Below are positions 1 through 53,411 of a stretch of DNA of 53,411 nucleotides, piece by piece. This DNA is from a virus. The notes beneath the pieces are model-generated. The model did no database searches. It was not told the origin of the DNA and was given only the letters and a program-made list of their open reading frames with translations. The DNA is taken from the IMG/VR virus record IMGVR_UViG_3300050821_013390, positions 1 to 53,411 of that record; one strand, written 5' to 3'. The position numbers and the translations under genes were made by a program. The first letter of the stretch is position 1; each line of letters starts with the position of its first letter.

Positions 1-98
1 CTATAGCACAACACTATTCTCAAGTGACTGGAAAAGAGTTAATTAATCCAGGCAATAGCGCTATACTTGATTACCAGCCTTATCCATTTCTATTAGCT
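1..98. repeat. Terminal direct repeat, copy 1 (identical to 53314..53411); circular-assembly overlap or terminal redundancy
   Basis: Bases 1-98 (ctatagcacaacactattc...ccatttctattagct) recur exactly at the 3' end of the window. One ORF reads through the join in frame. Confidence 0.95.
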
Positions 99-2846: not shown

Positions 2847-4055
2847 TTGTTTGGAATAGCTTTTTCTTCAGGCTCCGTGTTTATTTTTTTAGCAAGCAGC
2901 TTACCGTTATTAATCTATTCTGAGCATGGTTCTGCTAAGCAAATCAGCATTCTAGCGTTAATAACAATTCCCTATTCTTTAAAAATATTATGGGCGCCGT
3001 ATTTCGATCATAATGTGGCCCCAGTTCTATATAGATGCTTTGGTCATCGTAAGGCGTGGGCGTTATTTTTACTTGCTGTTTTATTTATCATGATGGGGTT
3101 TATGCCCTATACATCGCCACACAAGGATTATCTATTAACCTGCTTATTAGCAACTCTCATATGCATGGGGATGGCTATGATAGATACTATATCAGCAGCT
3201 TACCGTGCGGGGAACTTCACCAAGGAACGTTTGCCGATGGCTATGGCTTTTACTAACATGGGATTTTATACGGGTTTATTATTAGCAGGCGCTGGGTCTT
3301 TATATTGTTCTGCTCATAACTTCTCCTGGCAACGAATTAATCTACTAATGCTATATTTATTAATACCTAGCTTTATAGGTTGGTTATGCTTGGGTGATAC
3401 TACCCAAAACGCTATCTCTAATCACCCAGATAAACAGCCCCTACGAGATTTTGTTAAAACTTTACAACATGCATTAAAGGATTTAAACCAGAGCCACTCA
3501 TTGAAGTGGCTTGCATTATTTATATTGTTTTATAAAATTAGTGATTCTGTTACCCAATACTGGGGTCCAGTAATGTTTATGGATTTAGGATTTAGCAAAT
3601 CTGAATTAGCCTTTACCGTAAGAACTGTGGGTACTGTAGCCATGCTGGTGGCGAGTGCTATTGCCGGCAAATGGCTTACTAAAACAGGAATTATGCGAGG
3701 CATGATTGGGTGTGGTATTTTACAGTTAGCTGCTCCCTTGGTGTTGTTGTATTTCGCAACAAGCAGCCAAAACAAAGTTATCTTTACTATTACGGTAGTT
3801 ATTCAAGCTATTGTATGTGGAATGGCTCATACGGCACTAATGACTTTTTTAGCCAGTTTATGTAAAGGTCAATATATAATCACTAAAATTGCTGTAGTAT
3901 GCTCATTTGCATCATTTATGCGCACATTATTGGCTTATGGGAGTGGCTATTTTAAGGGCTATACCAATATCAGTTGGCCCCTTTTCTTTATTATCGTGGC
4001 AGTTTCAAGCATACCCTTTCTGTATGCAGCACGAAAACTAAAATCCTGTAGTTAA
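2847..4055 (+). CDS. ampG: AmpG-family MFS permease (muropeptide transporter-like)
   Basis: Multi-pass membrane protein. PYSLKILWAPYFD...FGHRKAW and IDTISAAYRAGNFTKERLP match the AmpG signatures (FKFLWSPLMD...FGRRRGW, DIVFDAW..D.L..EERG). The only in-frame start is TTG at 2847; the frame is open from 2811. Confidence 0.75.
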   Translation: MFGIAFSSGSVFIFLASSLPLLIYSEHGSAKQISILALITIPYSLKILWAPYFDHNVAPVLYRCFGHRKAWALFLLAVLFIMMGFMPYTSPHKDYLLTCLLATLICMGMAMIDTISAAYRAGNFTKERLPMAMAFTNMGFYTGLLLAGAGSLYCSAHNFSWQRINLLMLYLLIPSFIGWLCLGDTTQNAISNHPDKQPLRDFVKTLQHALKDLNQSHSLKWLALFILFYKISDSVTQYWGPVMFMDLGFSKSELAFTVRTVGTVAMLVASAIAGKWLTKTGIMRGMIGCGILQLAAPLVLLYFATSSQNKVIFTITVVIQAIVCGMAHTALMTFLASLCKGQYIITKIAVVCSFASFMRTLLAYGSGYFKGYTNISWPLFFIIVAVSSIPFLYAARKLKSCS

Positions 4056-30510: not shown

Positions 30511-33030
30511 CTATTGGTGTGTTTCACTAAAGTGGCCTAATGGCCGTTCTTGCACTTTGTGCTGGTCCGACTCAAATTTGTGTTCTACTTTAAAAACCTC
30601 GGTTTGCGCCCTTAACTGAGCTTCCTGAGCTTTTTCCTGTAGCTTGGCTTGCTCAGTCTCAAACTTAAGGTTTTCTTTAAAGACATCTGTCTCAAGTTTA
30701 GAGTTTGCTTCTTGATGTTTAAGGTGCGAAGCCTCTCTTCTTTGACCAATGTCCTCCAACATAATCTTATTGGGGTCTAATTGATTTTGTTGGGCTTGTT
30801 GTTGTGCTTCCATTTCCTTCTGTGCTGCTTGCGCATCTTCTTGAGCAAGAGCATTTTGGACTTGGGGCATTTGCATAATCTGCATAATGTCCATTTGACC
30901 CATTTGCTGTATTTGCATTTGCACTTGTTGTTGTAATTGCTGCATCTGCGCCTGAACTTCCATTTGCATTTGCGGCATCATCATTGCTTGTTGTTGTAAT
31001 TGCTCAATCTGCGGTTGCATTTGTTGTTGCATGTTTTGCTGCATCTCCTGCAACATGTGAGCAAAAATCTTATAAGCCTTATGCTGTTGCATATTTAAAG
31101 TTATCTGTGCTTGCAATGGCGGAGTTAATCCTCCCTTAACCTCTAAATCATGCAGGAACTTTCCTTTAACCATTATATGCGCATCATGGTCTTGGAATGG
31201 TGCGGCTTTAACGGGTGCGCCCTGTAGAAGAAGCATGTCTTCACTAGTAGGATCTAGGGTTTGTGGTTCCGGCACAGGGGGTAATATTTTATTAATGTCT
31301 TCAATACCCATAGCCTTATACATACGTTCTAATATTTCGCGTTGATTATGTAATTGCGGGGCACTTGAAGACAACTTTAGTAACGCCTCAGCTCGCATAA
31401 TGCGTTGTGTGCTGGTATTGATATTCGGGTCGGACACCGGGATTATATCTATTTGGTCGTTAAAATCTTGTTTTAATATGTAAGTTTGACTATTAGGCAA
31501 TGAGAACGGATATGGCATATCTCCCAGGTATTTACCAAATAGTTTACTCAGGAGCGTTAACTCTATACCTAATGAAAAGTGAAGGCCACGCAAAATAGCT
31601 GACTGGCCTCTGTGAGCTATGTCTAATAAGGCAAGCGTAGTTCCTACAGGGGCTTGAGCATTATTTTCAGAAATTACAGCACTGGTAACAGAGCCAAGCG
31701 CGCGAGTCTCCTCTATTAATTTATCTCTCAACTGTGCTAATACAATCGATGGCTCCGCATATGGCATTAACATCAATGCTTCTTGGATGGGACGGCCGCC
31801 TGTCTCTATATCAAGAAATTCTGCCGGGCCTACTGCTTTGTTATTACTCTTAATGCGCATGCCAGCTGCTTTTAAACCACCTGGGAAGTTCTTTAAAGTA
31901 CCTGCATCTATTAATTGTCTTTGAATAGAGGTTAAGGTGATGGCGTTGCTTCCTAATAGATGGGCCAACCCCCAAGCATAAAGTCCAAAACTAGGTAGGT
32001 ACTGATATTGAACAAAATATTGAATTCTATTAAAGGCATTATCGTTTTGTTCCCAGTTGCGTCTAATTGCCACTACTTTTTTATTGTATTCATCAATAGT
32101 TACAATATAAGGAAGGGGGATGTTATTAGGATTGATATTCTTGTCTATATCTAATTCTAAATTAGTATGTGACTCATAATATGTAAATAAGTCTTTATTA
32201 TCAGAACCCTTGGTGTCAATACCTTCTTGTCTATTAATAGCGGTCTTTAATTTATTATCATCTTCAGTGTCATCATTAATTGCAGGAACTACATTGCCAA
32301 TAAATTGTCCTATTGATTGCTTTAATAAGATGTCTTTACGGGATAATTCCATCCTATGCGTTATGCGGGAGGATTCCATTAAACTTGTGGTATTGTTATT
32401 AACAATTAAATCGTAAGGTTTTATAAAACGGGCAACTGGACGATTTTGAACAAAGTCTTGATAAACTTTACGGAAAGCACACCCAAAGAAACCTACATAT
32501 AATAATAACTTCTCAGAATCCGGATAATATTCCTTATCCATCTGAGTAAGGTAATAATTAAGAAACTTCTTGACTCGGTCGCCCTGCTCTTCTTTCTCGG
32601 GCGTAACCTCTCCTAATATTCTTGCCCCTACCGGGCCGTTTACTGGAAATAATTCGCTTCGGGCTGTTGCCCAGAAATCAATAAGAGTTGTGCCAAGGGT
32701 TGAATCATATGCACCGCATGCTCGCATGAAAGGGACGGTCCTGTACTCATCTACCTTAAAGCCCAGATACTTCAAGACCTTTTCAATAGTGTTTTCCCAT
32801 TCCTGCCGGGACTCTAAATCTTGATTGATGCCTTCTAATAGCTCTTGGGCGATGGTGCCTAGCTGCCCAGCTGATAAGTGCTCGGCTAAATTGGAGTCAA
32901 AAGGAATAGGAGCGCTTTCTTGCGCTTGTTCTTCAGCTAAAGTGTAAACAGATGAGCCATCCGGTAAGTCTTCCGACTTAACGAATGACCCACTTGTCCC
33001 TTCATCTGAAAAGAGATTCGAATCAGACAT
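30511..33030 (-). CDS. Portal protein with Gln/Met-rich C-terminal extension
   Basis: 839 aa. First gene of the leftward virion block, divergent from the large terminase. The call rests on size and position. The C-terminus has a QQNMQQQMQPQIEQLQQQAMMMPQMQMEVQAQMQQLQQQ tract. Confidence 0.6.
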   Translation of the reverse strand: MSDSNLFSDEGTSGSFVKSEDLPDGSSVYTLAEEQAQESAPIPFDSNLAEHLSAGQLGTIAQELLEGINQDLESRQEWENTIEKVLKYLGFKVDEYRTVPFMRACGAYDSTLGTTLIDFWATARSELFPVNGPVGARILGEVTPEKEEQGDRVKKFLNYYLTQMDKEYYPDSEKLLLYVGFFGCAFRKVYQDFVQNRPVARFIKPYDLIVNNNTTSLMESSRITHRMELSRKDILLKQSIGQFIGNVVPAINDDTEDDNKLKTAINRQEGIDTKGSDNKDLFTYYESHTNLELDIDKNINPNNIPLPYIVTIDEYNKKVVAIRRNWEQNDNAFNRIQYFVQYQYLPSFGLYAWGLAHLLGSNAITLTSIQRQLIDAGTLKNFPGGLKAAGMRIKSNNKAVGPAEFLDIETGGRPIQEALMLMPYAEPSIVLAQLRDKLIEETRALGSVTSAVISENNAQAPVGTTLALLDIAHRGQSAILRGLHFSLGIELTLLSKLFGKYLGDMPYPFSLPNSQTYILKQDFNDQIDIIPVSDPNINTSTQRIMRAEALLKLSSSAPQLHNQREILERMYKAMGIEDINKILPPVPEPQTLDPTSEDMLLLQGAPVKAAPFQDHDAHIMVKGKFLHDLEVKGGLTPPLQAQITLNMQQHKAYKIFAHMLQEMQQNMQQQMQPQIEQLQQQAMMMPQMQMEVQAQMQQLQQQVQMQIQQMGQMDIMQIMQMPQVQNALAQEDAQAAQKEMEAQQQAQQNQLDPNKIMLEDIGQRREASHLKHQEANSKLETDVFKENLKFETEQAKLQEKAQEAQLRAQTEVFKVEHKFESDQHKVQERPLGHFSETHQ

Positions 33031-33209: not shown

Positions 33210-34820
33210 ATGAATAACAACTTAAACGCGTATTTACTAGAATTCTTAGGCAAATATCCTGAGATAGTTAAAGAACAAAGGCAAGAAAAGGCTTATGAGA
33301 CCTCGTTTTATGAGTTCGCAAAAGCTGCATGGCCTAATATTGATTCCAGTACCTTCCAGGATGCTTGGCATGCTCGCGCCATATGCGAGCATTTAGAGGC
33401 TGTAGTTAGGGGTCTAATACCAAAGTTAATCATTAATGTACCTCCTCGTACTGGCAAGTCCGCCCTTATATCAATCATGTTCCCAGCCTGGGTATGGATT
33501 ACTCAGCCTAAAATGAAGTTCCTGTACGGCTCTCACGCTTATAGCCTCGCTCTAGACCATTCACGGCGTTGCCGCCTACTAATAGAGAGTGACTGGTATC
33601 AAAAACGCTGGGGAAGCATATTTAAGCTTTCAGCTGACCAGTCCACCAAACACTTCTTCACCAATGACAAGCATGGGCACAGACTGGCTACGAGCGTTGG
33701 GGGAGGGGTTACTGGCTTTGGAGCTAACATATTAATAGGCGACGATTTAAATGACCTAAGCGATGGGTATTCTTCCACGGCTCGTGACCGAGCTAATGAC
33801 TGGGTAAGTCGCGTATGGTCTTCCCGTACCAATCCTGGTCAATTCAGTGCCCATATAATAGTGCAGCAAAGGGTAGCGTGTTCTGATGTAACGGGTTACC
33901 TATTAGATAAAGACGAGAAAAAAGAATGGGTGAAGCTAATCTTGCCCATGGAATTTGAAACAGCTAGACGCGCTAAAACCATTATCCTACCCTCTACCTA
34001 TCCCAATACATGGGAAGACCCTAGAAAGAGAGAGGCAGAGCTCCTGTGGCCCGCAGGAATAGATAGATTAAAAGTCCAAACATTTAAAGGGGACTTAGGA
34101 GATTATAACTACGCAGGACAACATCAACAAAGACCCAGTCCTGAAGCTGGAGGTATTATTCAAAAGAGTTGGTACCAATGGTGGAAGCAACCAGCACCCC
34201 CCAAGTTATTGCAAACTGTTCAAAGCTGGGATACAGCCTTAGAGGCTAAAGATGAGAATTGTTATTCAGCTTGCACAACATGGGGGTTATTCGAGGACGA
34301 TAAGAAGGCAACTAATATAATCTTGTTAAATATGTGGCGAGGTAAGGTTGAGTTCCCAGTGCTAAGAAAAATGGCTAAGCGTCTATATGAGGACTATAGA
34401 GACGACGGTAGCATTGCAATAAAGCCCGATAATAAGCATGTTCCCACCTTTGTGCTGGTAGAAGCCAAGGCATCAGGTAGCTCCTTAATACATGAGCTCC
34501 AAAGCGCGGGCATTCCGGCCTATGGGTTTGACCCAGGAAGGTTTGGCGAGAAGATTCAAAGGGTAAGGCTAGTTACTCACATGATTGAAGGGGGAAGGGT
34601 CTGGGTGCCAGCTTATCCCCCTGAATATGTGAGACTCCGGAACTTTGCCGATATCTTTGTTAATGAGACCTCCCTATTCCCCAAGAGTGATAGCCGGGAC
34701 TTAGTTGACACGATGACCCAAGTTTTATTAAGATTGAATACTTCGGGGCTTATAAAACACCCTGATGCAAAGGACATGGAAGATACAGGAACCGTATTGA
34801 GTGATGCTCTGTACTGGTAA
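33210..34820 (+). CDS. terL: Terminase large subunit
   Basis: Walker [17 protein letters not shown] Walker B-like motif, and a C-terminal nuclease-type region (VLVEAKASG...DSRDLVDT). Confidence 0.9.
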
Positions 34821-35314: not shown

Positions 35315-35782
35315 ATGGCAAGTGTTAATAAAGTAATTCTAATTGGAAATCTAGGTAAAGAGCCTGAATGCAAGTGTATGCCCAGCGGAACCCAGGTTAC
35401 CAAGTTCAGTCTGGCTACTAATGAGAAGTGGAAAGATAAGAAGACTGGCGAGATGCAAACAAAAACTGAATGGCATAATATAGTTATGTATAATAAGTTG
35501 GCTGAGAGAGCAGCCTTTTTAAAAAAAGGTATGTCTGTTTATATTGAAGGCTCTATCAGCACGAATAAATGGAAGGACAAGGATGGTCAGGATAAAACCA
35601 CAACTAATATAGCAGCTAGCGCTATGCAGATATTAAGCGGAATGGAAGAAATAAAAAGACAACTCGAGGATATGGGCGGAGGAATAAAAAACTTCCCCGG
35701 TGAATTAACTCTCAAAAATATACCCGAGCATAAAGCACAGACTACGTTGGGATTCTTTGCTGATGACGATTTACCTTTTTAA
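35315..35782 (+). CDS. ssb: Single-stranded DNA-binding protein
   Basis: The OB-fold N-terminus VNKVILIGNLGKEPE...TEWHNIVMY and the acidic tail DDDLPF are canonical SSB features. Confidence 0.95.
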   Translation: MASVNKVILIGNLGKEPECKCMPSGTQVTKFSLATNEKWKDKKTGEMQTKTEWHNIVMYNKLAERAAFLKKGMSVYIEGSISTNKWKDKDGQDKTTTNIAASAMQILSGMEEIKRQLEDMGGGIKNFPGELTLKNIPEHKAQTTLGFFADDDLPF

Positions 35783-36807: not shown

Positions 36808-37527
36808 CTATAACGATATATTATAAATTATCCCCAACCCACAGGTTAGGCTGTTCTTTGCTTGGATATGTCGATGGGGGTTGGTTTTAGAATATGCCCG
36901 TAAACGATGGGGTCGCCAATAATTATTAAAGACCTCTCTTACCGTAGCCTCCACGCTAAAATCTTTAACATTGTATCCCATTCCAATTTTTATTACCGGT
37001 AATATCTTGGTATTCTGGAAAATAGAACTAATATCAACCATTGTTGTATTATATTGATAAATAAAGGCGTGTGCTTTTACTCGAGAAATACTAAGACCCA
37101 ATCCCCCTAGAGCATAGCAATTACCAAAATTATTAATCTTTATCAATACCATTAATGGTATATGTGACTGTCGCATCTTAGTGCGCATCCTAACAACATG
37201 TCCGGCTGGTATAGGATTGCTTCCGGCTACCATTTCTTCAGACCCAATAGATGCATTATATTTTTGACAGAAATAATTCTCGTATCCTGCTTCAATCCCA
37301 AAATGACGCGAAAACATAAATCCCGCGCTAACACCTACGCCTTTTGTATTCTTATGGAATAAGTTTTTTCCGTAATTGTTTTCCCATTGCGTATGATTAG
37401 ATAAGGCTGATACCCCCAGTCTAATGGTCTTAGGATGGGCATATACTATCTTAAATGAACCATGTTTTTCGGCATAGGAAATGCTGGCAAATATTAATAA
37501 TATGCTACTTAAGATTAATACTTTCAT
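36808..37527 (-). CDS. Outer-membrane beta-barrel protein (OmpA-N/Ail-Lom-like moron)
   Basis: Signal peptide MKVLILSSILLIFASISYA|E (start 37525-37527). Alternating amphipathic strands GVSAGFMFSRHFGIEAGYENY, YALGGLGLSISRV, VIKIGMGYNV, LTCGLGIIYNI. Confidence 0.65.
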   Translation of the reverse strand: MKVLILSSILLIFASISYAEKHGSFKIVYAHPKTIRLGVSALSNHTQWENNYGKNLFHKNTKGVGVSAGFMFSRHFGIEAGYENYFCQKYNASIGSEEMVAGSNPIPAGHVVRMRTKMRQSHIPLMVLIKINNFGNCYALGGLGLSISRVKAHAFIYQYNTTMVDISSIFQNTKILPVIKIGMGYNVKDFSVEATVREVFNNYWRPHRLRAYSKTNPHRHIQAKNSLTCGLGIIYNISL

Positions 37528-37550
37528 TATTTTATTTGCCCTTCTGTCAT

Positions 37551-37712
37551 TTATGGAGCCCATTTATAGGGTTCACCCATGCCGGGGCCCATCGAGAACG
37601 GTCTCCATACGCCACCCTTATACACGCAAATCGCCACCGTCCCATCAGCAGGGATCCAAAGCTTTTCCTGTTGTTCAACAGTCATGTGGGGGATATTTAT
37701 TTTTTCAGTCAT
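37551..37712 (-). CDS. Small early protein (53 aa), possible 4th member of the Y-x-x-G-x-W family
   Basis: Not in the ORF track. ATG at 37710-37712, 3 nt upstream of the preceding gene's stop codon (8-nt overlap). MTEK... N-terminus like its neighbours. AICVYKGGVWRPF motif. Confidence 0.45.
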   Translation of the reverse strand: MTEKINIPHMTVEQQEKLWIPADGTVAICVYKGGVWRPFSMGPGMGEPYKWAP

Positions 37713-41332: not shown

Positions 41333-41569
41333 TTACCCCTTCTTGTCCAACTCATTCGCTAACACTTTAACCCTACCCACAATTTCCTTAGAACTTTCCT
41401 CAAGCTCCTTAAGTTTTCCCTTATTATAGAGCCAGGGATTATCCTTAACGCTATAGAACACTGGCTTACGCGCACCACCATGCAAGTCATCCGCTAACCA
41501 TCTAATCATCTTGATAGCCTCAGACTGCTCTATCTTTTCTTTTAAGTCAGAGAATGCCTTATATGTCAT
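41333..41569 (-). CDS. Early hypothetical protein
   Basis: Packed operon. Confidence 0.55.
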   Translation of the reverse strand: MTYKAFSDLKEKIEQSEAIKMIRWLADDLHGGARKPVFYSVKDNPWLYNKGKLKELEESSKEIVGRVKVLANELDKKG

Positions 41570-41984
41570 GCTCTTTCTCTAGCCATTCCGGCAACTTATT
41601 TAAACGAAAGATAATCATATCTAATTCATCCCGCATCCTGCCAATCTGGCCCTCAAGCTTCTCCGCTCTATCCTGCATTCTCATTATTTCAACTATAGCT
41701 CTACTTAGGCATATATCCTTAATTTCTTGCGGAATCGCAGCGTTTTTCTTGACTTTCTTCTTAAACAAGCTTCCGGTCATTCCTAAACTTACTTTATGAT
41801 TAGCTAAAGTTTTCTTAATATCGCTCACTTGCTTCTTACCCATATTAACCATCTTCAACAAATCCTTCTCGGTTTTTTGCACCAAATCTCCAATAACATT
41901 AATCCCATCATGCTTTAAGGCATTGGTAGCCCGCGTGGAAAGTTTTAAATCCTCTACTGGTAAATCTAAAAGCCCTTTATACAT
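41559..41984 (-). CDS. RNA polymerase alpha-subunit C-terminal-domain (alpha-CTD) homologue fused to a coiled coil
   Basis: LPVEDLKLSTRATNALKHDGINVIGDLVQKTEKDLLKMVNMGKKQVSDIKKTLANHKVSLGM aligns without gaps to E. coli RpoA 255-316. Strong AAGGAG SD. Confidence 0.8.
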   Translation of the reverse strand: MYKGLLDLPVEDLKLSTRATNALKHDGINVIGDLVQKTEKDLLKMVNMGKKQVSDIKKTLANHKVSLGMTGSLFKKKVKKNAAIPQEIKDICLSRAIVEIMRMQDRAEKLEGQIGRMRDELDMIIFRLNKLPEWLEKEHDI

Positions 41985-43963: not shown

Positions 43964-44312
43964 ATTCCTTTGTTAATATTTCTCGTTCTAAATCATTCAT
44001 ATGCCAGCTACCAGAGACCCTCTTGCTAACTCCGTATAATACGCGACCTACGGCACCCCTGTCTGCTTCCTTGTAAATCTTTGCTAATGTATTCTTTAAT
44101 CTTAACTTAAAGCTCTCTAAACCTTCTTCAACCTTAAATATATCTGAAGAAGAAGAGGATATATTATCATACCATATGGATATATCTCCACGTTCTCTTT
44201 CTTTATATAAAGCTATTACAGAAACCTTTTCTATTGTACCGTTGTCGCCGTTATAAACATCTTCTAGCAGTAAATCTATTCTTGCTTTTAATACTTTAGT
44301 TGCTGCTTTCAC
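43947..44312 (-). CDS. Early hypothetical protein
   Basis: Packed operon. Confidence 0.55.
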   Translation of the reverse strand: MKAATKVLKARIDLLLEDVYNGDNGTIEKVSVIALYKERERGDISIWYDNISSSSSDIFKVEEGLESFKLRLKNTLAKIYKEADRGAVGRVLYGVSKRVSGSWHMNDLEREILTKECDDEN

Positions 44313-44724
44313 TTCTAGGCCTCTCCCTTATCAAGTAATTAATAAGCTTGTTTTTATACTCAACGTCGAATACAAAGCCCTTAAATACCAATGTACCCAA
44401 GAAGCTATCTCGCATTGTTATTATCTGCCTCATCCAGAATCGCTCTTTTTTCCATTTGCCGCAGATATCCTTGAATCTGAATATCTTTTCTAAATCCCCT
44501 TCGCCATCAAAAAACATCTCTTCAACATATATAGGATTCGCTATCCAAATGGGAGATAGAAGCTCATTGAAGCCTTTAGATAGGTGAAAATATAAACCAG
44601 GTTCGAATACCTTGTTGGACCCCCCCCTCCTCTCCAGCCCATTTACTGGTATACGACATTTTAAAAGGATTGAGGTGGCATCTAGTGCCTGGTTCAAAAT
44701 CTTTATGTCCTGCATTAAATACAT
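44296..44724 (-). CDS. Early hypothetical protein
   Basis: Packed operon. Confidence 0.55.
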   Translation of the reverse strand: MYLMQDIKILNQALDATSILLKCRIPVNGLERRGGSNKVFEPGLYFHLSKGFNELLSPIWIANPIYVEEMFFDGEGDLEKIFRFKDICGKWKKERFWMRQIITMRDSFLGTLVFKGFVFDVEYKNKLINYLIRERPRSESSN

Positions 44725-50755: not shown

Positions 50756-50935
50756 TTAGTCTTTTGACAAGTTATCTTTGTTTTTATCAGTAAGCCTCTC
50801 AAGTAACATTGCTGTAGCTGTGTCAATCCAAAACGCTTTGTCACGTGCCATAGCTCGACGCGCATTATGAAACATTTCCTGTGTAGGTGATGCATTGGCT
50901 GCCGGGCGTTGCGTTTCAATTTCTTGTTTAGACAT
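50756..50935 (-). CDS. Small protein downstream of the initiator gene (59 aa)
   Basis: ATG at 50933-50935, 5 nt after the initiator stop. The track's longer version overlaps the initiator gene. Confidence 0.5.
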   Translation of the reverse strand: MSKQEIETQRPAANASPTQEMFHNARRAMARDKAFWIDTATAMLLERLTDKNKDNLSKD

Positions 50936-50940
50936 GCTGT

Positions 50941-52362
50941 TTACCTTTGCTCTCTGCCCAAGCTCAGCATCATTTCGTGATACGGGATAGAATTCACGAA
51001 GTTGGGGCTGAGAATGTTTAGGTTGCACATTTTCATCAATGAATCGATGGACATGCGCTCTCTTTCCTGAATGAGGAGATAAGTTTTGGTTTTAGCTGTC
51101 TCCGATAATTTATCCCACCATGCAGCGTTTTCGCTAGCAGTAGGGAATATTTTTGTAGCCTGGGGGGCTTGTGTGGTTCTCGCCATTGTTTGCTCCGTAG
51201 TTTTAATTTCTGTGAAAGCTGTAATCACATCTTCCCAACGATGTTGGTTAAGCCATGTACTTGCTCTCGCCCATTCTTCGCACCAGAGGTTGCGATTAAT
51301 CTTTTCCTGACGTTCTTTGATTTGAGCCTCTATCGCTCCCATCATTGTTTCATTATTAGTTAATTTAATTGCTTTCTCATGGTAGGCCCTGCTGGCCATG
51401 TGCTTGCCTTTCTTATTCGGATAGATGGCCCAGAATTTATCAAAGCCGCCTGTATCTAAGTTTGTTTTCTTTGTTTTAATTATTGGGGGAGAAAGTTCAA
51501 GCGGGTCAGGCGAAGCGTGACCAATATATTTATTTGTTCTTTCTTTATTTGTTCTTTGATTGTTTATTCTTAGTGTCTGGTTTTCCGTATACGGTTTTCC
51601 AGGAAGCGGTTTTCCAGGAAGCGGTGAGGTTGGGTCATCCTTCACCGTATCCGGCTTTCCAGGAAGCGGCTGAACATCTGTAAAACAAGGTGTTTCAACC
51701 GCATACGGCTTTCCAGGAAGCGGTTGTACGGTTGTTGGGTGATATTGCCGTGCTGTGGATAACTTTTGTGCTGTGGATAAGTCTGTGGATAAAACCGTAT
51801 ACGGCTTTCCAGGAAGCGGTGATAGCCCTTTAAAATAAGGGTTTAAACTAGGATGCTCATATAAAATCATTATTGATGGACCAAATTTGCCTTTGGATCC
51901 CTTTTTTTGCTCCATGTAGATATAACCATGGTTTTTTAGTTCGTTGAGGGAACGATATAATGCGTCTCGACCATTTGGAGAATGTCTAATAACCTCGTTA
52001 ACGCATATATTCCAGTTATCATTCATGCTTAATAAATAAGCTAAGAGACCCTTTGCTGCCCAAGAAAGATGCTCATCTCGGATACTTTCATTATGGATCC
52101 TGGTGTAGTTAAGACCTTTGTGTTGGGGCATCCTAAAGATACATTTTTTACGAGAGCTAACTTTGGGGGGCTGTATAGGTTCTATTACAGGGAGGGCTTC
52201 TTTGATTACTTCAGTTGTTTCTTCATCAATAATATCTGGTATTTGGTGTTGAAGGTTGTTCATATTGCGAGAAGCTTTCTCTATGCGTTCGAGTATTTTA
52301 GGAAGACATTCTGAAAAAGGGCGCATCATTAAAAATCCTTGTAAATTAAACGGGTCATCCAT
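50941..52362 (-). CDS. Iteron-type replication initiator (winged-helix N-domain; origin embedded in the ORF)
   Basis: YTRIHNESIRDEHLSWAAKGLLAYLLSMNDNW...RDALYRSLNELKNHGYIYMEQ resembles Rep/DnaD-like wHTH. The central linker PLPGKPY x5 is encoded by the iterons. C-terminal FDKFWAIYPNKKGK motif. Confidence 0.75.
   Translation of the reverse strand: MDDPFNLQGFLMMRPFSECLPKILERIEKASRNMNNLQHQIPDIIDEETTEVIKEALPVIEPIQPPKVSSRKKCIFRMPQHKGLNYTRIHNESIRDEHLSWAAKGLLAYLLSMNDNWNICVNEVIRHSPNGRDALYRSLNELKNHGYIYMEQKKGSKGKFGPSIMILYEHPSLNPYFKGLSPLPGKPYTVLSTDLSTAQKLSTARQYHPTTVQPLPGKPYAVETPCFTDVQPLPGKPDTVKDDPTSPLPGKPLPGKPYTENQTLRINNQRTNKERTNKYIGHASPDPLELSPPIIKTKKTNLDTGGFDKFWAIYPNKKGKHMASRAYHEKAIKLTNNETMMGAIEAQIKERQEKINRNLWCEEWARASTWLNQHRWEDVITAFTEIKTTEQTMARTTQAPQATKIFPTASENAAWWDKLSETAKTKTYLLIQERERMSIDSLMKMCNLNILSPNFVNSIPYHEMMLSLGREQR
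51525..51575. promoter_or_regulatory. AT-rich tandem repeats (candidate DNA-unwinding element)
   Basis: TTTATTTGTTCTTT at 51529-51542 and 51544-51557, plus a degenerate third copy. Confidence 0.5.
51585..51820. repeat. Iterons: 5 copies of TTTCCAGGAAGCGG (4 with the CCGTATACGGY 5' extension)
   Basis: Core copies at 51596, 51611, 51656, 51710 and 51806, all in the same orientation. Confidence 0.85.
51754..51792 (-). promoter_or_regulatory. Cluster of three perfect DnaA boxes (TTATCCACA on the minus strand)
   Basis: TGTGGATAA at 51754-51762, 51772-51780 and 51784-51792, between iterons 4 and 5. Confidence 0.8.
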
Positions 52363-53140: not shown

Positions 53141-53411
53141 TGAATTTAAGAAAGCTAGAGCTAAAGGTCTAGGCGGCAGTGATATCGGGGCCATATTTGA
53201 CTGTCCTACCGCATATAAATCGGCATATGAGCTCTATATGGAAAAGGTATATGGAACAGAGAGGGATATATCCACTGAGCAGCCTGTCATATGGGGTAAT
53301 CTATTAGAAGAGCCTATAGCACAACACTATTCTCAAGTGACTGGAAAAGAGTTAATTAATCCAGGCAATAGCGCTATACTTGATTACCAGCCTTATCCAT
53401 TTCTATTAGCT
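53133..53411 (+). CDS. YqaJ/lambda-Exo-type exonuclease, N-terminal part (continues at window start)
   Basis: ATG at 53133 with AAGGAA SD. MSDEFKKARAKGLGGSDIGAIFD...WGNLLEEPIAQHY. Open to the window end and in frame with 24..716 via the 98-nt overlap. Confidence 0.85.
   Translation, partial: MSDEFKKARAKGLGGSDIGAIFDCPTAYKSAYELYMEKVYGTERDISTEQPVIWGNLLEEPIAQHYSQVTGKELINPGNSAILDYQPYPFLLA
53314..53411. repeat. Terminal direct repeat, copy 2 (identical to 1..98)
   Basis: Exact 98-nt identity with the window start. Confidence 0.95.

What the first reader, a model, noticed from the sequence alone, without database searches (positions are those of the whole stretch)
51525..51820. Plasmid-style origin embedded in the initiator ORF
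Within about 300 bp inside the 473-aa initiator gene the sequence shows three element types in order. First, two perfect tandem TTTATTTGTTCTTT 14-mers plus a degenerate third. Second, five same-orientation copies of TTTCCAGGAAGCGG; four extend to the 25-mer CCGTATACGGYTTTCCAGGAAGCGG and two are directly tandem. Third, three perfect DnaA boxes (TGTGGATAA, which is TTATCCACA on the other strand) packed into 39 bp between iterons 4 and 5.

The iterons are translated as a PLPGKP(Y/D) linker and the DnaA boxes as LSTAQKLSTA. The DNA function therefore probably dictates the protein linker sequence.

An origin inside the initiator gene is the lambda O arrangement. The iteron + DnaA box + AT-rich grammar is that of theta plasmids (P1, F, pSC101). 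This suggests DnaA-dependent, plasmid-like replication in a phage that has no recognisable helicase, primase or polymerase.
Basis: partly seen in the sequence, partly recalled or inferred. Interest (0 to 1): 0.7.

Follow-up and report, generated by a model that had tools for sequence, protein, structure and literature searches.

The report
Phage origin with DnaA boxes inside rep gene
The repeats are real and are most likely the phage's replication origin, written into the flexible linker of its own initiator gene; that layout is already known from lambda and some plasmids, and the only unusual feature is three perfect binding sites for the host initiator DnaA inside the coding sequence.

Summary
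**Observation:** confirmed. Inside the 473-aa rep ORF (50941-52362, minus strand) lie three element types, and none of them occurs anywhere else in this 53.3-kb circular phage genome:
- five exact TTTCCAGGAAGCGG copies, four of which extend to about 25-mers;
- three perfect DnaA boxes within 39 bp;
- two tandem AT-rich 15-mers plus a degenerate third.

**Interpretation:** supported. The protein is a winged-helix (wHTH) initiator of the HTH_36 / DnaD-like / lambda-O-like type. The origin DNA encodes exactly the segment predicted to be disordered (aa 181-279).

**Comparison with about 130 related loci:**
- The layout wHTH, then in-gene tandem repeats, then AT-rich DNA, then a C-terminal domain is general to the family.
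- The iteron core CCGTATACGG is conserved at the nucleotide level, always in this linker, in replicons of 28-58% GC. This argues for selection on the DNA rather than on the peptide.

**Already described:** an origin inside the initiator gene (lambda O, SPP1 gp38, pSK41 RepA_N, pPR9), and the order DnaA boxes, iterons, unwinding element (RK2, P1).

**Apparently new:**
- The two designs are combined, with consensus DnaA boxes overprinted on a phage initiator ORF.
- The phage has no detectable helicase, loader, primase or polymerase.

A separate actinophage-like clade also carries DnaA boxes at the same gene position.

**Untested:** DnaA dependence.

**Verdict:** new variant of a known kind; moderate interest.

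The parts
50941..52362 (-). rep gene: 473-aa replication initiator (an alternative start at M12 gives 462 aa)
   Evidence: ORF listed. PHROG 4707 (3e-25), 270 (5e-23) and 428 'replication initiation protein', plus 345 'O-like' (6e-7). Pfam HTH_36 at 19.8 bits, below the 25-bit cutoff. P0001 is 100% identical.
51853..52110 (-). Segment encoding the N-terminal winged-helix DNA-binding domain (aa ~85-170)
   Evidence: AF2 pLDDT 82-94 with an H-E-H-H-E-E topology. It is the only region conserved with homologues (A1). The best Foldseek hits are weak: primosome DnaB of the DnaD-like family, wHTH regulators and RctB domain 1.
51526..51822 (-). Linker-coding segment (aa 181-279), which is the proposed origin as a whole
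   Evidence: pLDDT is below 50 for aa 181-252 and 272-337. All repeat classes map here and nowhere else in the genome.
51795..51819 (+). Iteron 5: CCGTATACGGCTTTCCAGGAAGCGG (gene strand: CCGCTTCCTGGAAAGCCGTATACGG, read as PLPGKPYT)
51784..51792 (-). DnaA box 3, a perfect TTATCCACA, read as L-S-T
51772..51780 (-). DnaA box 2, a perfect TTATCCACA
51754..51762 (-). DnaA box 1, a perfect TTATCCACA. All three boxes share the extended form CTGTGGATAA on the + strand.
   Evidence: (family D4)
51699..51723 (+). Iteron 4 (CCGCATACGGC-TTTCCAGGAAGCGG)
51645..51669 (+). Iteron 3 (CCGTATCCGGC-TTTCCAGGAAGCGG)
51611..51624 (+). Iteron 2: the 14-mer only, directly tandem to iteron 1
51585..51609 (+). Iteron 1 (CCGTATACGGT-TTTCCAGGAAGCGG)
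51519..51580 (.). AT-rich putative DNA-unwinding element (74% A+T, T-rich on the + strand). It holds 15-mers at 51529-43 and 51544-58 and a degenerate copy at ~51559-73, and is read as RINNQRTNKERTNKYI.
   Evidence: It is the least stable 45-bp window in the rep gene and falls in the lowest 0.26% of the genome by nearest-neighbour free energy. Repeats are listed.
50941..51495 (-). Segment encoding the C-terminal region (aa 290-473), including the WxxYPxKxGK motif shared with many relatives. Presumed to interact with host factors.
   Evidence: PHROG 9474 and 9327 ('replication initiation' / 'primosomal protein') match aa 270-385. The motif is visible in relatives. The model is low-confidence helical.

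Best explanation
This is the phage's theta-type replication origin, overprinted on the disordered interdomain linker of its own initiator gene.

Proposed mechanism:
1. The N-terminal winged-helix domain of Rep binds the five iterons. Each iteron contains the family-conserved Rep box TTCCTGGAAARCCGTATACGG, which includes a 10-bp palindrome. (Inferred from conservation.)
2. Host DnaA binds the three consensus boxes lying between iterons 4 and 5. (Inferred from sequence.)
3. The Rep-DnaA nucleoprotein complex destabilises the adjacent AT-rich 15-mer tract, which lies 3' of the iterons in the direction of the gene. (Inferred.)
4. The phage encodes no helicase, loader, primase or polymerase. DnaA, possibly together with the Rep C-terminal domain, therefore recruits host DnaB-DnaC at the boxes and hands the helicase to the melted tract, as at RK2 oriV. 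The host replisome then does the rest. (Inferred by analogy.)

The linker peptide (the PLPGKPYT repeats, LST LST LST, and RINNQRTNKERTNK) is largely a by-product of these DNA signals.
For: **The elements are real and unique.** They are statistically non-random and confined to this site.

**The gene is an initiator.** It matches phage initiator families.

**The origin DNA matches the linker.** It corresponds exactly to the low-pLDDT linker, aa 181-279.

**The architecture is family-wide.** In 66 viral loci, 48 genomic loci and several plasmid or cultured-phage loci, the order is wHTH, then short in-gene tandem repeats, then AT-rich DNA encoding N/K/I-rich peptide, then a variable C-terminus.

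**Selection acts at the DNA level.**
- All 5 copies use the identical codons CCG CTT CCT GGA. From background codon usage, four further copies would match by chance with P of about 5e-11, while neighbouring codons and spacers differ.
- The exact sequence CCGTATACGG occurs 11 times in 618 kb of related loci against 0.6 expected.
- It always lies in the Rep linker, and its flanks are shared.
- The replicons carrying it include a 28%-GC Staphylococcus plasmid, a 36%-GC Bacteroides phage and a 58%-GC gammaproteobacterial prophage.

**The AT tract is unstable.** It is the least stable 45-mer in the gene and falls in the lowest 0.26% genome-wide.

**No replication enzymes detected.** No helicase, loader, primase or polymerase family matched any ORF of at least 120 aa.

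**DnaA boxes recur independently.**
- They appear at the same gene position in a distant high-GC clade.
- The 70 related loci scanned hold 38 perfect boxes against 2.7 expected.
- TGTGGATAAC is the only block invariant across that clade.
- A cultured member is Curtobacterium phage Elener gp39.

**Published precedents.**
- The pSK41 origin lies inside rep, and its ori-encoded linker is dispensable.
- The pPR9 N-terminal domain is of the pfam13730 type. Both points come from PMC5703833.
- SPP1 oriL lies inside gene 38 (PMC6316719).
- Lambda O binds iterons (PMC3985674).
- RK2 and P1 combine DnaA boxes, iterons and a DUE, and DnaA positions DnaB-DnaC (PMC4980987).

**Weak and confounded.** The cumulative GC-skew minimum at 50,879 lies about 0.65 kb from the AT tract.
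Against: - There is no experimental datum: no binding, replication or origin-mapping result.
- The host is unknown, so its DnaA-box preference is assumed to be canonical.
- Most relatives of this Rep family lack DnaA boxes (3 perfect boxes in 220 kb of genomic loci, none of them in a linker). The family does not in general need DnaA at the origin.
- Many small early ORFs have no detectable homology, and a novel loader could be hiding among them.
- The AT tract is not the single least stable site in the genome; about a dozen intergenic sites are less stable.
- The GC-skew maximum lies only about 6 kb away, so the skew mainly tracks transcription direction.
- The test 'relatives without boxes encode a loader next to rep' was inconclusive.
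Confidence: 0.65

Rival explanations
1. The iterons and AT tract form a Rep-driven, lambda-like origin, but the DnaA boxes are not part of the initiation machinery. In this reading they are regulatory. They could make rep expression or initiation timing sensitive to host DnaA level, for instance through DnaA acting as a roadblock or activator inside the rep transcript. Alternatively they could titrate DnaA, as datA does, once the phage genome is amplified, which would dampen host initiation.
For: - Most relatives of the Rep family manage without boxes.
- In lambda, DnaA acts through transcription near the origin rather than at the iterons (PMC3985674).
- The boxes lie about 180-270 bp from the AT tract, separated from it by four iterons.
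Against: - The order boxes, iterons, DUE is exactly that of RK2 oriV, where DnaA acts in helicase delivery (PMC4980987).
- No phage helicase loader was found.
- The boxes are interleaved between iterons 4 and 5 rather than lying at a promoter.
- No promoter-like enrichment was found in the region.
Confidence: 0.2
2. The element is a plasmid-type maintenance origin of a phage-plasmid, that is, an episomal prophage under iteron and DnaA copy control. Lytic replication would start elsewhere or by recombination involving RecT/YqaJ.
For: - No integrase was detected among ORFs of at least 120 aa.
- Rep relatives sit on Legionella, Fluoribacter, Leptospira and Staphylococcus plasmids.
- One relative lies next to a ParA-like gene (L126).
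- The iteron plus DnaA-box grammar is typical of low-copy plasmids (PMC4980987).
- The phage encodes RecT, YqaJ and SSB.
Against: - No ParA/ParB, toxin-antitoxin or second iteron set (incA-like) was found in the genome.
- No other origin-like repeat cluster was seen.
- Lifestyle cannot be established from sequence alone.
Confidence: 0.1
3. The repeats exist for the protein: a proline-rich PLPGKPYT repeat linker, with the DNA repeats a mere consequence or the result of recent slippage or gene conversion. The true origin is elsewhere.
For: - The peptide motifs KPYT and LST recur in relatives.
- 'LST' is encoded by a different DNA sequence (TTAAGTACT) in the nearest relatives, which could hint at some constraint on the peptide.
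Against: - Synonymous positions are invariant among the copies, while adjacent amino acids change.
- The codon triplet CCG TAT ACG is kept even in 28-38% GC replicons.
- Three exact 9-mers equal to the DnaA consensus cannot be explained by an L-S-T peptide, since only 1 of 144 codon combinations gives that sequence each time.
- The segment is predicted to be disordered.
- The equivalent pSK41 linker peptide is dispensable (PMC5703833).
Confidence: 0.04

Closest known systems
Bacteriophage lambda O protein / ori-lambda (and lambdoid relatives)
   Same: - The origin lies inside the initiator ORF.
- Iterons with internal dyad symmetry are followed, in the direction of the gene, by an AT-rich tract.
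- An N-terminal DNA-binding domain and a C-terminal recruitment domain are separated by an ori-encoded flexible segment.
- There is remote sequence similarity (PHROG 345 'O-like', 6e-7).
   Different: - No P-like helicase loader gene follows rep.
- There are five iterons of a different sequence.
- Three consensus DnaA boxes lie among the iterons. In lambda, DnaA sites lie near the pO promoter and act through transcription (PMC3985674).
- The Pfam Phage_rep_O model is not matched.
RepA_N plasmids (pSK41, pAD1 type) and the pPR9 chimeric Rep with a pfam13730 N-terminal domain
   Same: - The protein is three-part: a wHTH N-terminal domain, a central linker encoded by the origin (Rep boxes inside the gene), and a host-specific C-terminal domain.
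- The linker peptide is dispensable.
- The pPR9 N-terminal domain is of the same Pfam type (HTH_36) and is shared with a putative phage replication protein (PMC5703833).
   Different: - The RepA_N model is not matched, and HTH_36 is matched only below its cutoff.
- Those plasmids are Gram-positive, and no DnaA boxes have been detected in them (PMC5703833).
- This case is a Gram-negative-type phage with three perfect boxes.
Bacillus phage SPP1 gp38 / oriL
   Same: The origin-binding protein binds direct repeats lying within its own gene, next to an AT-rich DUE (PMC6316719).
   Different: - SPP1 encodes its own loader (gp39) and DnaB-type helicase (gp40) and has a second origin (oriR).
- This phage has none of these.
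- This phage has DnaA boxes instead.
Iteron plasmids with DnaA boxes: RK2 oriV, P1 oriR, F, pSC101
   Same: - The order of elements is the same: a DnaA-box cluster, five iterons, then an AT-rich DUE with repeated 13-15-mers.
- Replication is presumed to rely on host DnaA for DnaB-DnaC delivery (PMC4980987).
   Different: - The Rep protein is not of the Rep_3/RepE/TrfA WH1-WH2 type (no Pfam hit).
- The origin is inside the rep ORF rather than intergenic.
- There are no inverted half-iterons at the rep promoter and no second iteron array.
- One iteron lies on the far side of the DnaA boxes.

Membership tests
Origin inside the initiator ORF (lambda O / SPP1 gp38 / pSK41 RepA_N architecture) | Initiator-binding direct repeats located inside the initiator's own coding sequence | tested here: met
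   Five iterons lie at 51585-51819, within ORF 50941-52362. Binding itself was not tested.
Origin inside the initiator ORF (lambda O / SPP1 gp38 / pSK41 RepA_N architecture) | An AT-rich unwinding tract adjacent to the repeats | tested here: met
   51519-51580 is 74% A+T, is the least stable 45-mer in the gene, and falls in the lowest 0.26% of the genome.
Origin inside the initiator ORF (lambda O / SPP1 gp38 / pSK41 RepA_N architecture) | The ori-encoded peptide is a flexible linker between an N-terminal DNA-binding domain and a C-terminal recruitment domain | tested here: met
   In the AF2 model the wHTH domain (aa 85-170) has pLDDT 82-94, and aa 181-252 and 272-337 are below 50. This is a prediction from a shallow alignment, so support is moderate.
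Origin inside the initiator ORF (lambda O / SPP1 gp38 / pSK41 RepA_N architecture) | The fragment supports Rep-dependent autonomous replication | not testable with these tools
   Needs cloning and replication assays.
Lambda O family proper (Pfam Phage_rep_O, with a P-type partner) | Sequence membership in Phage_rep_O | tested here: not met
   No Pfam hit. Only a remote match to PHROG 345 'O-like' at 6e-7.
Lambda O family proper (Pfam Phage_rep_O, with a P-type partner) | A helicase-loader gene (P or DnaC-like) immediately downstream | tested here: not met
   The ORFs downstream are 90 aa or shorter and match no family. No loader was found anywhere among ORFs of at least 120 aa.
HTH_36 / DnaD-like wHTH phage and plasmid initiators (PHROG 4707, 270, 428; pPR9-type N-terminal domain) | N-terminal winged-helix domain of this family | tested here: met
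   PHROG E-values run from 3e-25 to 4e-16. tblastn hits fall on annotated replication initiators and DnaD-domain proteins. HTH_36 scores 19.8 bits against a cutoff of 25. The best, though weak, Foldseek hit is the DnaD-like primosome protein DnaB.
HTH_36 / DnaD-like wHTH phage and plasmid initiators (PHROG 4707, 270, 428; pPR9-type N-terminal domain) | Short tandem DNA repeats directly 3' of the wHTH-coding segment, followed by AT-rich coding DNA | tested here: met
   Seen in the window and across related viral, genomic and plasmid loci. The CCGTATACGG core is shared with 9 other loci.
Iteron theta plasmids using DnaA (RK2, P1, F, pSC101) | Iterons plus DnaA boxes plus a DUE in one compact origin | tested here: met
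   The grammar is described in PMC4980987.
Iteron theta plasmids using DnaA (RK2, P1, F, pSC101) | Rep of the Rep_3 / RepE / TrfA (WH1-WH2) family | tested here: not met
   No Pfam or NCBIfam hit.
Iteron theta plasmids using DnaA (RK2, P1, F, pSC101) | Extra iterons or inverted half-iterons for autoregulation and copy control (operator, incA-type array) | tested here: not met
   No iteron or half-site copies occur outside 51.5-51.85 kb.
Iteron theta plasmids using DnaA (RK2, P1, F, pSC101) | Replication requires host DnaA | not testable with these tools
   Needs dnaA(ts) or depletion experiments, or box mutagenesis.
RepA_N (PF06970) | Sequence membership in RepA_N | tested here: not met
   No hit at E<=0.1.

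The most novel reading that the evidence does not exclude
This phage, and independently an actinophage-like clade, has written consensus DnaA boxes into the coding sequence of a wHTH initiator gene. Host DnaA would then replace a phage-encoded helicase loader. That would define an undescribed class of DnaA-dependent phage origins: a single ~300-bp stretch that serves at once as protein linker, Rep-box array, DnaA-box array and unwinding element. In the window, the boxes occupy the slot where relatives carry a different, uncharacterised second repeat (TTAAGTACTGA).
Probability: 0.4. Interest if true: 0.6.

Novelty: new variant of a known kind. Interest (0 to 1): 0.45.

Why it matters
- **A testable route to host-replisome capture.** If DnaA is needed here, the element shows how a phage with no replication enzymes of its own can take over the host replisome. 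It would do so with a plasmid-style Rep-plus-DnaA origin rather than a lambda-P-type loader. Such a dependence would tie phage replication to the host's DnaA-ATP cycle and would limit host range.
- **A clean example of dual coding.** Three DNA signals constrain one protein linker. The nucleotide-level conservation of the Rep box across phyla could be used to predict origins in the many phage and plasmid genomes that carry this initiator family.
- **Practical use.** The site is a candidate minimal replicon for an uncultured Gram-negative host lineage.

Tried and rejected
- **Near-identical DNA in cultured phages:** none.
- **Close Rep relatives.** None in IMG/VR. One spurious or weak locus in JGI metagenomes. 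Only two other contigs carry the same protein. Conservation of the boxes among close relatives therefore could not be assessed.
- **Exact 14-mer scan of IMG/VR:** only single-copy chance matches.
- **Genome scan with alignment A1:** It was redone with A2.
- **Rep-box core within 30 nt of a DnaA box in IMG/VR.**
  - 32 loci had the box in the window's orientation, against 4 in the control orientation.
  - The excess comes from one conserved structural-gene segment present in about 24 near-identical marine contigs.
  - That segment is single-copy and unrelated to Rep, so this lead was rejected.
- **Do relatives without boxes encode a loader after rep?** The downstream genes had no family annotation. 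Only Bacillus phage BMBtp16 (DnaC) and Arthrobacter phage Odyssey395 (primase) were informative. Inconclusive.
- **Are 'LST' motifs in the nearest relatives also DnaA boxes?** No. They are encoded by TTAAGTACT.
- **Other searches that gave nothing or little.** PDB sequence search: no hit. NCBIfam: nothing meaningful. Foldseek against PDB: no hit at E<=0.001.
- **Promoter and terminator scan:** not enriched.
- **tRNAs for host inference:** none.
- **Host placement:** the large terminase (TerL) is at most 40% identical to Roseobacter phages, so the host stays unknown.
- **GC skew:** the minimum lies near the origin, but the pattern is dominated by transcription direction.
- **Literature searches:** no description of DnaA boxes inside a phage initiator ORF was found. 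The searchable library excludes most subscription-journal papers, so absence of prior art is not proven.
Full report
**What is in the sequence**

The window is a complete circular assembly. Its first and last 98 nt are identical, so the true length is 53,313 bp. It is a tailed-phage genome:
- large terminase (TerL) at 33210-34820, portal at 30511-33030, head and tail proteins, and SSB at 35315-35782;
- RecT at 1473-2285, and a YqaJ exonuclease gene that runs across the junction.

The finding lies in ORF 50941..52362 on the minus strand, which encodes 473 aa.
- **Iterons.** Five exact TTTCCAGGAAGCGG copies start at 51596, 51611, 51656, 51710 and 51806. Four of them belong to 25/26-mers that begin with the 10-bp palindrome CCGTATACGG or a one-mismatch variant of it.
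- **DnaA boxes.** Three perfect boxes lie at 51754-62, 51772-80 and 51784-92, reading TTATCCACA on the gene strand. They are the only perfect boxes in 53 kb.
- **AT-rich repeats.** Two tandem 15-mers lie at 51529-58, followed by a degenerate third copy.

The 14-mer count (12 matches allowing up to 3 mismatches) was reached by none of 100 shuffles. None of 300 Markov-simulated genomes had two or more perfect DnaA boxes within 60 bp. No element type occurs anywhere else in the genome. Read along the gene, the order is: iteron 5, three DnaA boxes, iteron 4, iteron 3, iterons 2 and 1 in tandem, then the AT-rich tract.

**What the gene is**

The protein matches the PHROG 'replication initiation protein' families 4707 (3e-25), 270 (5e-23) and 428. 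More weakly, it matches DnaD-like loader and 'O-like' families. Pfam gives only a sub-threshold HTH_36 hit at aa 98-148.

An AlphaFold2 model gives a confident winged-helix domain at aa ~85-170 (pLDDT 82-94). Residues 181-252 and 272-337 score below 50. The C-terminal region is helical but of low confidence.

The origin DNA (51526-51822) encodes aa 181-279, which is exactly the segment predicted to be flexible. Structural neighbours are weak: the best is Geobacillus primosome protein DnaB, of the DnaD-like family, at E~0.02. There is no sequence match in the PDB.

**Comparative evidence: the layout is general to the family**

The Rep lineage itself is almost unsampled. There is one identical protein on two other contigs, and everything else is at most 45% identical over the wHTH domain alone. 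I therefore compared distant relatives:
- 66 IMG/VR loci and 48 loci from named genomes;
- metagenomic contigs;
- cultured phages and plasmids.

Nearly all carry short tandem repeats directly 3' of the wHTH-coding segment, each subfamily with its own unit. Examples are VSGKTVSGETVSGKP, ENPTLENPTLEN, eleven copies of PLTEN in a Lysinibacillus prophage, and KPDTVKPDTV. These repeats are usually followed by AT-rich DNA read as N/K/I/T-rich peptide, and then by a variable C-terminal domain. The window's arrangement is thus the family norm.

**Is the DNA or the peptide under selection?**

Two observations favour the DNA.
- **Within the window.** All five copies spell P-L-P-G as CCG CTT CCT GGA. From the phage's own codon usage, four further copies would match by chance with P of about 5e-11. 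Meanwhile the adjacent residues (Y/D, T/A) and the spacers differ. Gene conversion could contribute to this, but it does not explain the second observation.
- **Across relatives.**
  - The exact palindrome CCGTATACGG occurs 11 times in 618 kb of related loci, against 0.6 expected.
  - Every occurrence lies in the Rep linker, and the flanks are shared (TCCTGRAAANCCGTATACGG).
  - The replicons involved range from a 28%-GC Staphylococcus epidermidis plasmid and a 36%-GC Bacteroides phage (VA7) to a 58%-GC gammaproteobacterial prophage.

Keeping CCG TAT ACG in AT-rich genomes is hard to explain except as a conserved binding site. The simplest reading is that it is the Rep box of this wHTH subfamily.

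**The AT tract**

The tract at 51519-51580 is 74% A+T and strongly T-rich on one strand. It contains the least stable 45-bp window of the gene and ranks in the lowest 0.26% of the genome by nearest-neighbour free energy. About a dozen intergenic sites are less stable still. There are no GATC sites in the origin.

**The DnaA boxes are the unusual part**

- **Most relatives lack them.** Relatives in named genomes, plasmids and most cultured phages have no boxes in the linker. The genomic loci hold 3 perfect boxes in 220 kb, none of them in a linker.
- **What the nearest relatives have instead.** At the corresponding position and in the same frame, they carry a different tandem motif, TTAAGTACTGA(TCTA), which is also read L-S-T.
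- **A separate clade has boxes.**
  - A high-GC, actinophage-like clade carries two or three perfect boxes at the 3' end of the wHTH gene. They are in the opposite orientation, read P-V-D-N, and are followed by an AT-rich stretch.
  - The 70 related loci scanned hold 38 perfect boxes against 2.7 expected.
  - TGTGGATAAC is the only block invariant across seven diverged representatives.
  - A cultured member is Curtobacterium phage Elener gp39, with TGTGGATAA plus TGTGGACAA.
  - In that clade it cannot be excluded that the wHTH protein itself binds these sites.

In the window, by contrast, the family Rep box and the DnaA boxes coexist as distinct elements.

**Mechanism**

The order DnaA boxes, iterons, repeated AT-rich DUE is that of RK2 oriV. 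There, DnaA first positions DnaB-DnaC at the boxes, and Rep and DnaA then transfer the helicase to the melted DUE. P1, F and pSC101 also combine iterons with DnaA boxes (PMC4980987).

None of the 46 ORFs of at least 120 aa in this phage matches a helicase, loader, primase, polymerase, integrase or partition family. No early-region ORF exceeds 271 aa.

I therefore consider the following most likely. Rep binds the iterons, host DnaA binds the boxes, the complex opens the AT tract, and DnaA (with or without the Rep C-terminal domain) delivers host DnaB. The sequence features are shown. Binding, melting and DnaA dependence are all inferred.

**Comparison with what is known**

An origin inside the initiator gene is established for several systems:
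- lambda O, which binds iterons (PMC3985674);
- SPP1 gp38, whose oriL lies within gene 38 (PMC6316719);

The same review describes pPR9, whose Rep N-terminal domain is of the pfam13730 type and is shared with a putative phage replication protein. It also states that DnaA boxes have not been detected in those plasmids (PMC5703833).

I found no description of consensus DnaA boxes overprinted on a phage initiator ORF. The searchable library is incomplete, so this is not proof of novelty. I file the element as a new variant of a known kind. It works like a lambda / pSK41-type in-gene origin combined with RK2 / P1-type use of DnaA. It is not a member of the Phage_rep_O, RepA_N or Rep_3 sequence families.

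**Rival explanations**
- **(a) The boxes are regulatory or titrate DnaA (about 0.2).** In this reading they do not take part in helicase loading.
- **(b) A plasmid-prophage maintenance origin, with lytic initiation elsewhere (about 0.1).** In its favour: no integrase was found, and relatives sit on plasmids. Against it: there are no partition genes and no second iteron array.
- **(c) A purely protein-level repeat (about 0.04).** The codon and cross-phylum DNA evidence contradicts this.

**Caveats**
- The host is unknown. TerL is at most 40% identical to that of Roseobacter phages. An AmpG-like MFS transporter and an OMP-like protein suggest a Gram-negative host.
- The GC-skew minimum at 50,879 lies near the origin, but the skew mainly follows transcription direction.
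- The structural model rests on 12 sequences.

Noticed in passing
window 1-98 and 53314-53411: The first and last 98 nt are identical, so the window is a circular assembly with a k-mer overlap and a true length of 53,313 bp. The YqaJ-like exonuclease gene runs across the junction.
   Followed up: yes
window 2847-4055 (+): A 402-aa MFS transporter encoded by the phage, about 24-27% identical to AmpG-type muropeptide permeases on plasmids and chromids. This is an unusual cargo gene for a phage and may give a clue to a Gram-negative host.
   Followed up: partly
window 41559-41984 (-): A 141-aa protein with a clear RNA polymerase alpha-subunit C-terminal domain (Pfam RNA_pol_A_CTD, 5e-20) in the early region. 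It may be a decoy or modulator of host transcription.
   Followed up: no
window 36808-37563 (-): A 251-aa ORF with sub-threshold matches to outer-membrane beta-barrel / OmpA-like domains, consistent with a Gram-negative host.
   Followed up: no
window 44296-44724 (-): A 142-aa ORF with a borderline DUF927 match (21.3 bits against a cutoff of 22.6). DUF927 accompanies some primase-helicase proteins, but no helicase domain is present here.
   Followed up: no
L254:2346-3401, L255:4001-4879, L196:2567-3286, L198:1-1122: The nearest wHTH relatives carry a second tandem repeat after their iterons: TTAAGTACTGA(TCTA) or CTAAGTACNAA. It is read L-S-T-[DENK], in the same frame and position as the window's DnaA boxes (also L-S-T) but from different DNA. 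This may be an uncharacterised second binding site of the family that the DnaA boxes have replaced in the window.
   Followed up: partly
L146, L150, L161, L164, L167, L181 (~280-350 nt after the start of the wHTH match); L250:1809-1852 (Curtobacterium phage Elener gp39): In a high-GC clade, short wHTH proteins of about 140-150 aa end in PVDNS..PVDNS, encoded by 2-3 perfect DnaA boxes (CCTGTGGATAACT). A small hairpin and an AT/purine-rich intergenic stretch follow, and in several loci an HNH-terminase gene comes next. The function is unknown: it could be an origin, or a site bound by the wHTH protein itself.
   Followed up: partly
L204:2501-3496 (Lysinibacillus sp. RS11 prophage); L223 (Roseithermus): Extreme versions of the in-gene repeat array. 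The Lysinibacillus prophage has about 11 tandem PLTEN units followed by NNNLLNNNLLNKNNN, and the Roseithermus locus has about 8 EPDE(A/E) units.
   Followed up: no
L197 / L199 (Legionella pneumophila and Fluoribacter dumoffii conjugative plasmids): A Rep-family homologue with the same wHTH, P-rich repeat and N/K-rich linker layout sits between traY and traT in the transfer region. It is annotated only as 'hypothetical protein'.
   Followed up: no
window ~50879: The cumulative GC-skew minimum of the circularised genome falls at the 3' end of rep, about 0.65 kb from the AT tract. The rep gene has a skew opposite to that of the other minus-strand genes. The maximum lies at ~3958, so the pattern mostly tracks the block of plus-strand genes.
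   Followed up: partly
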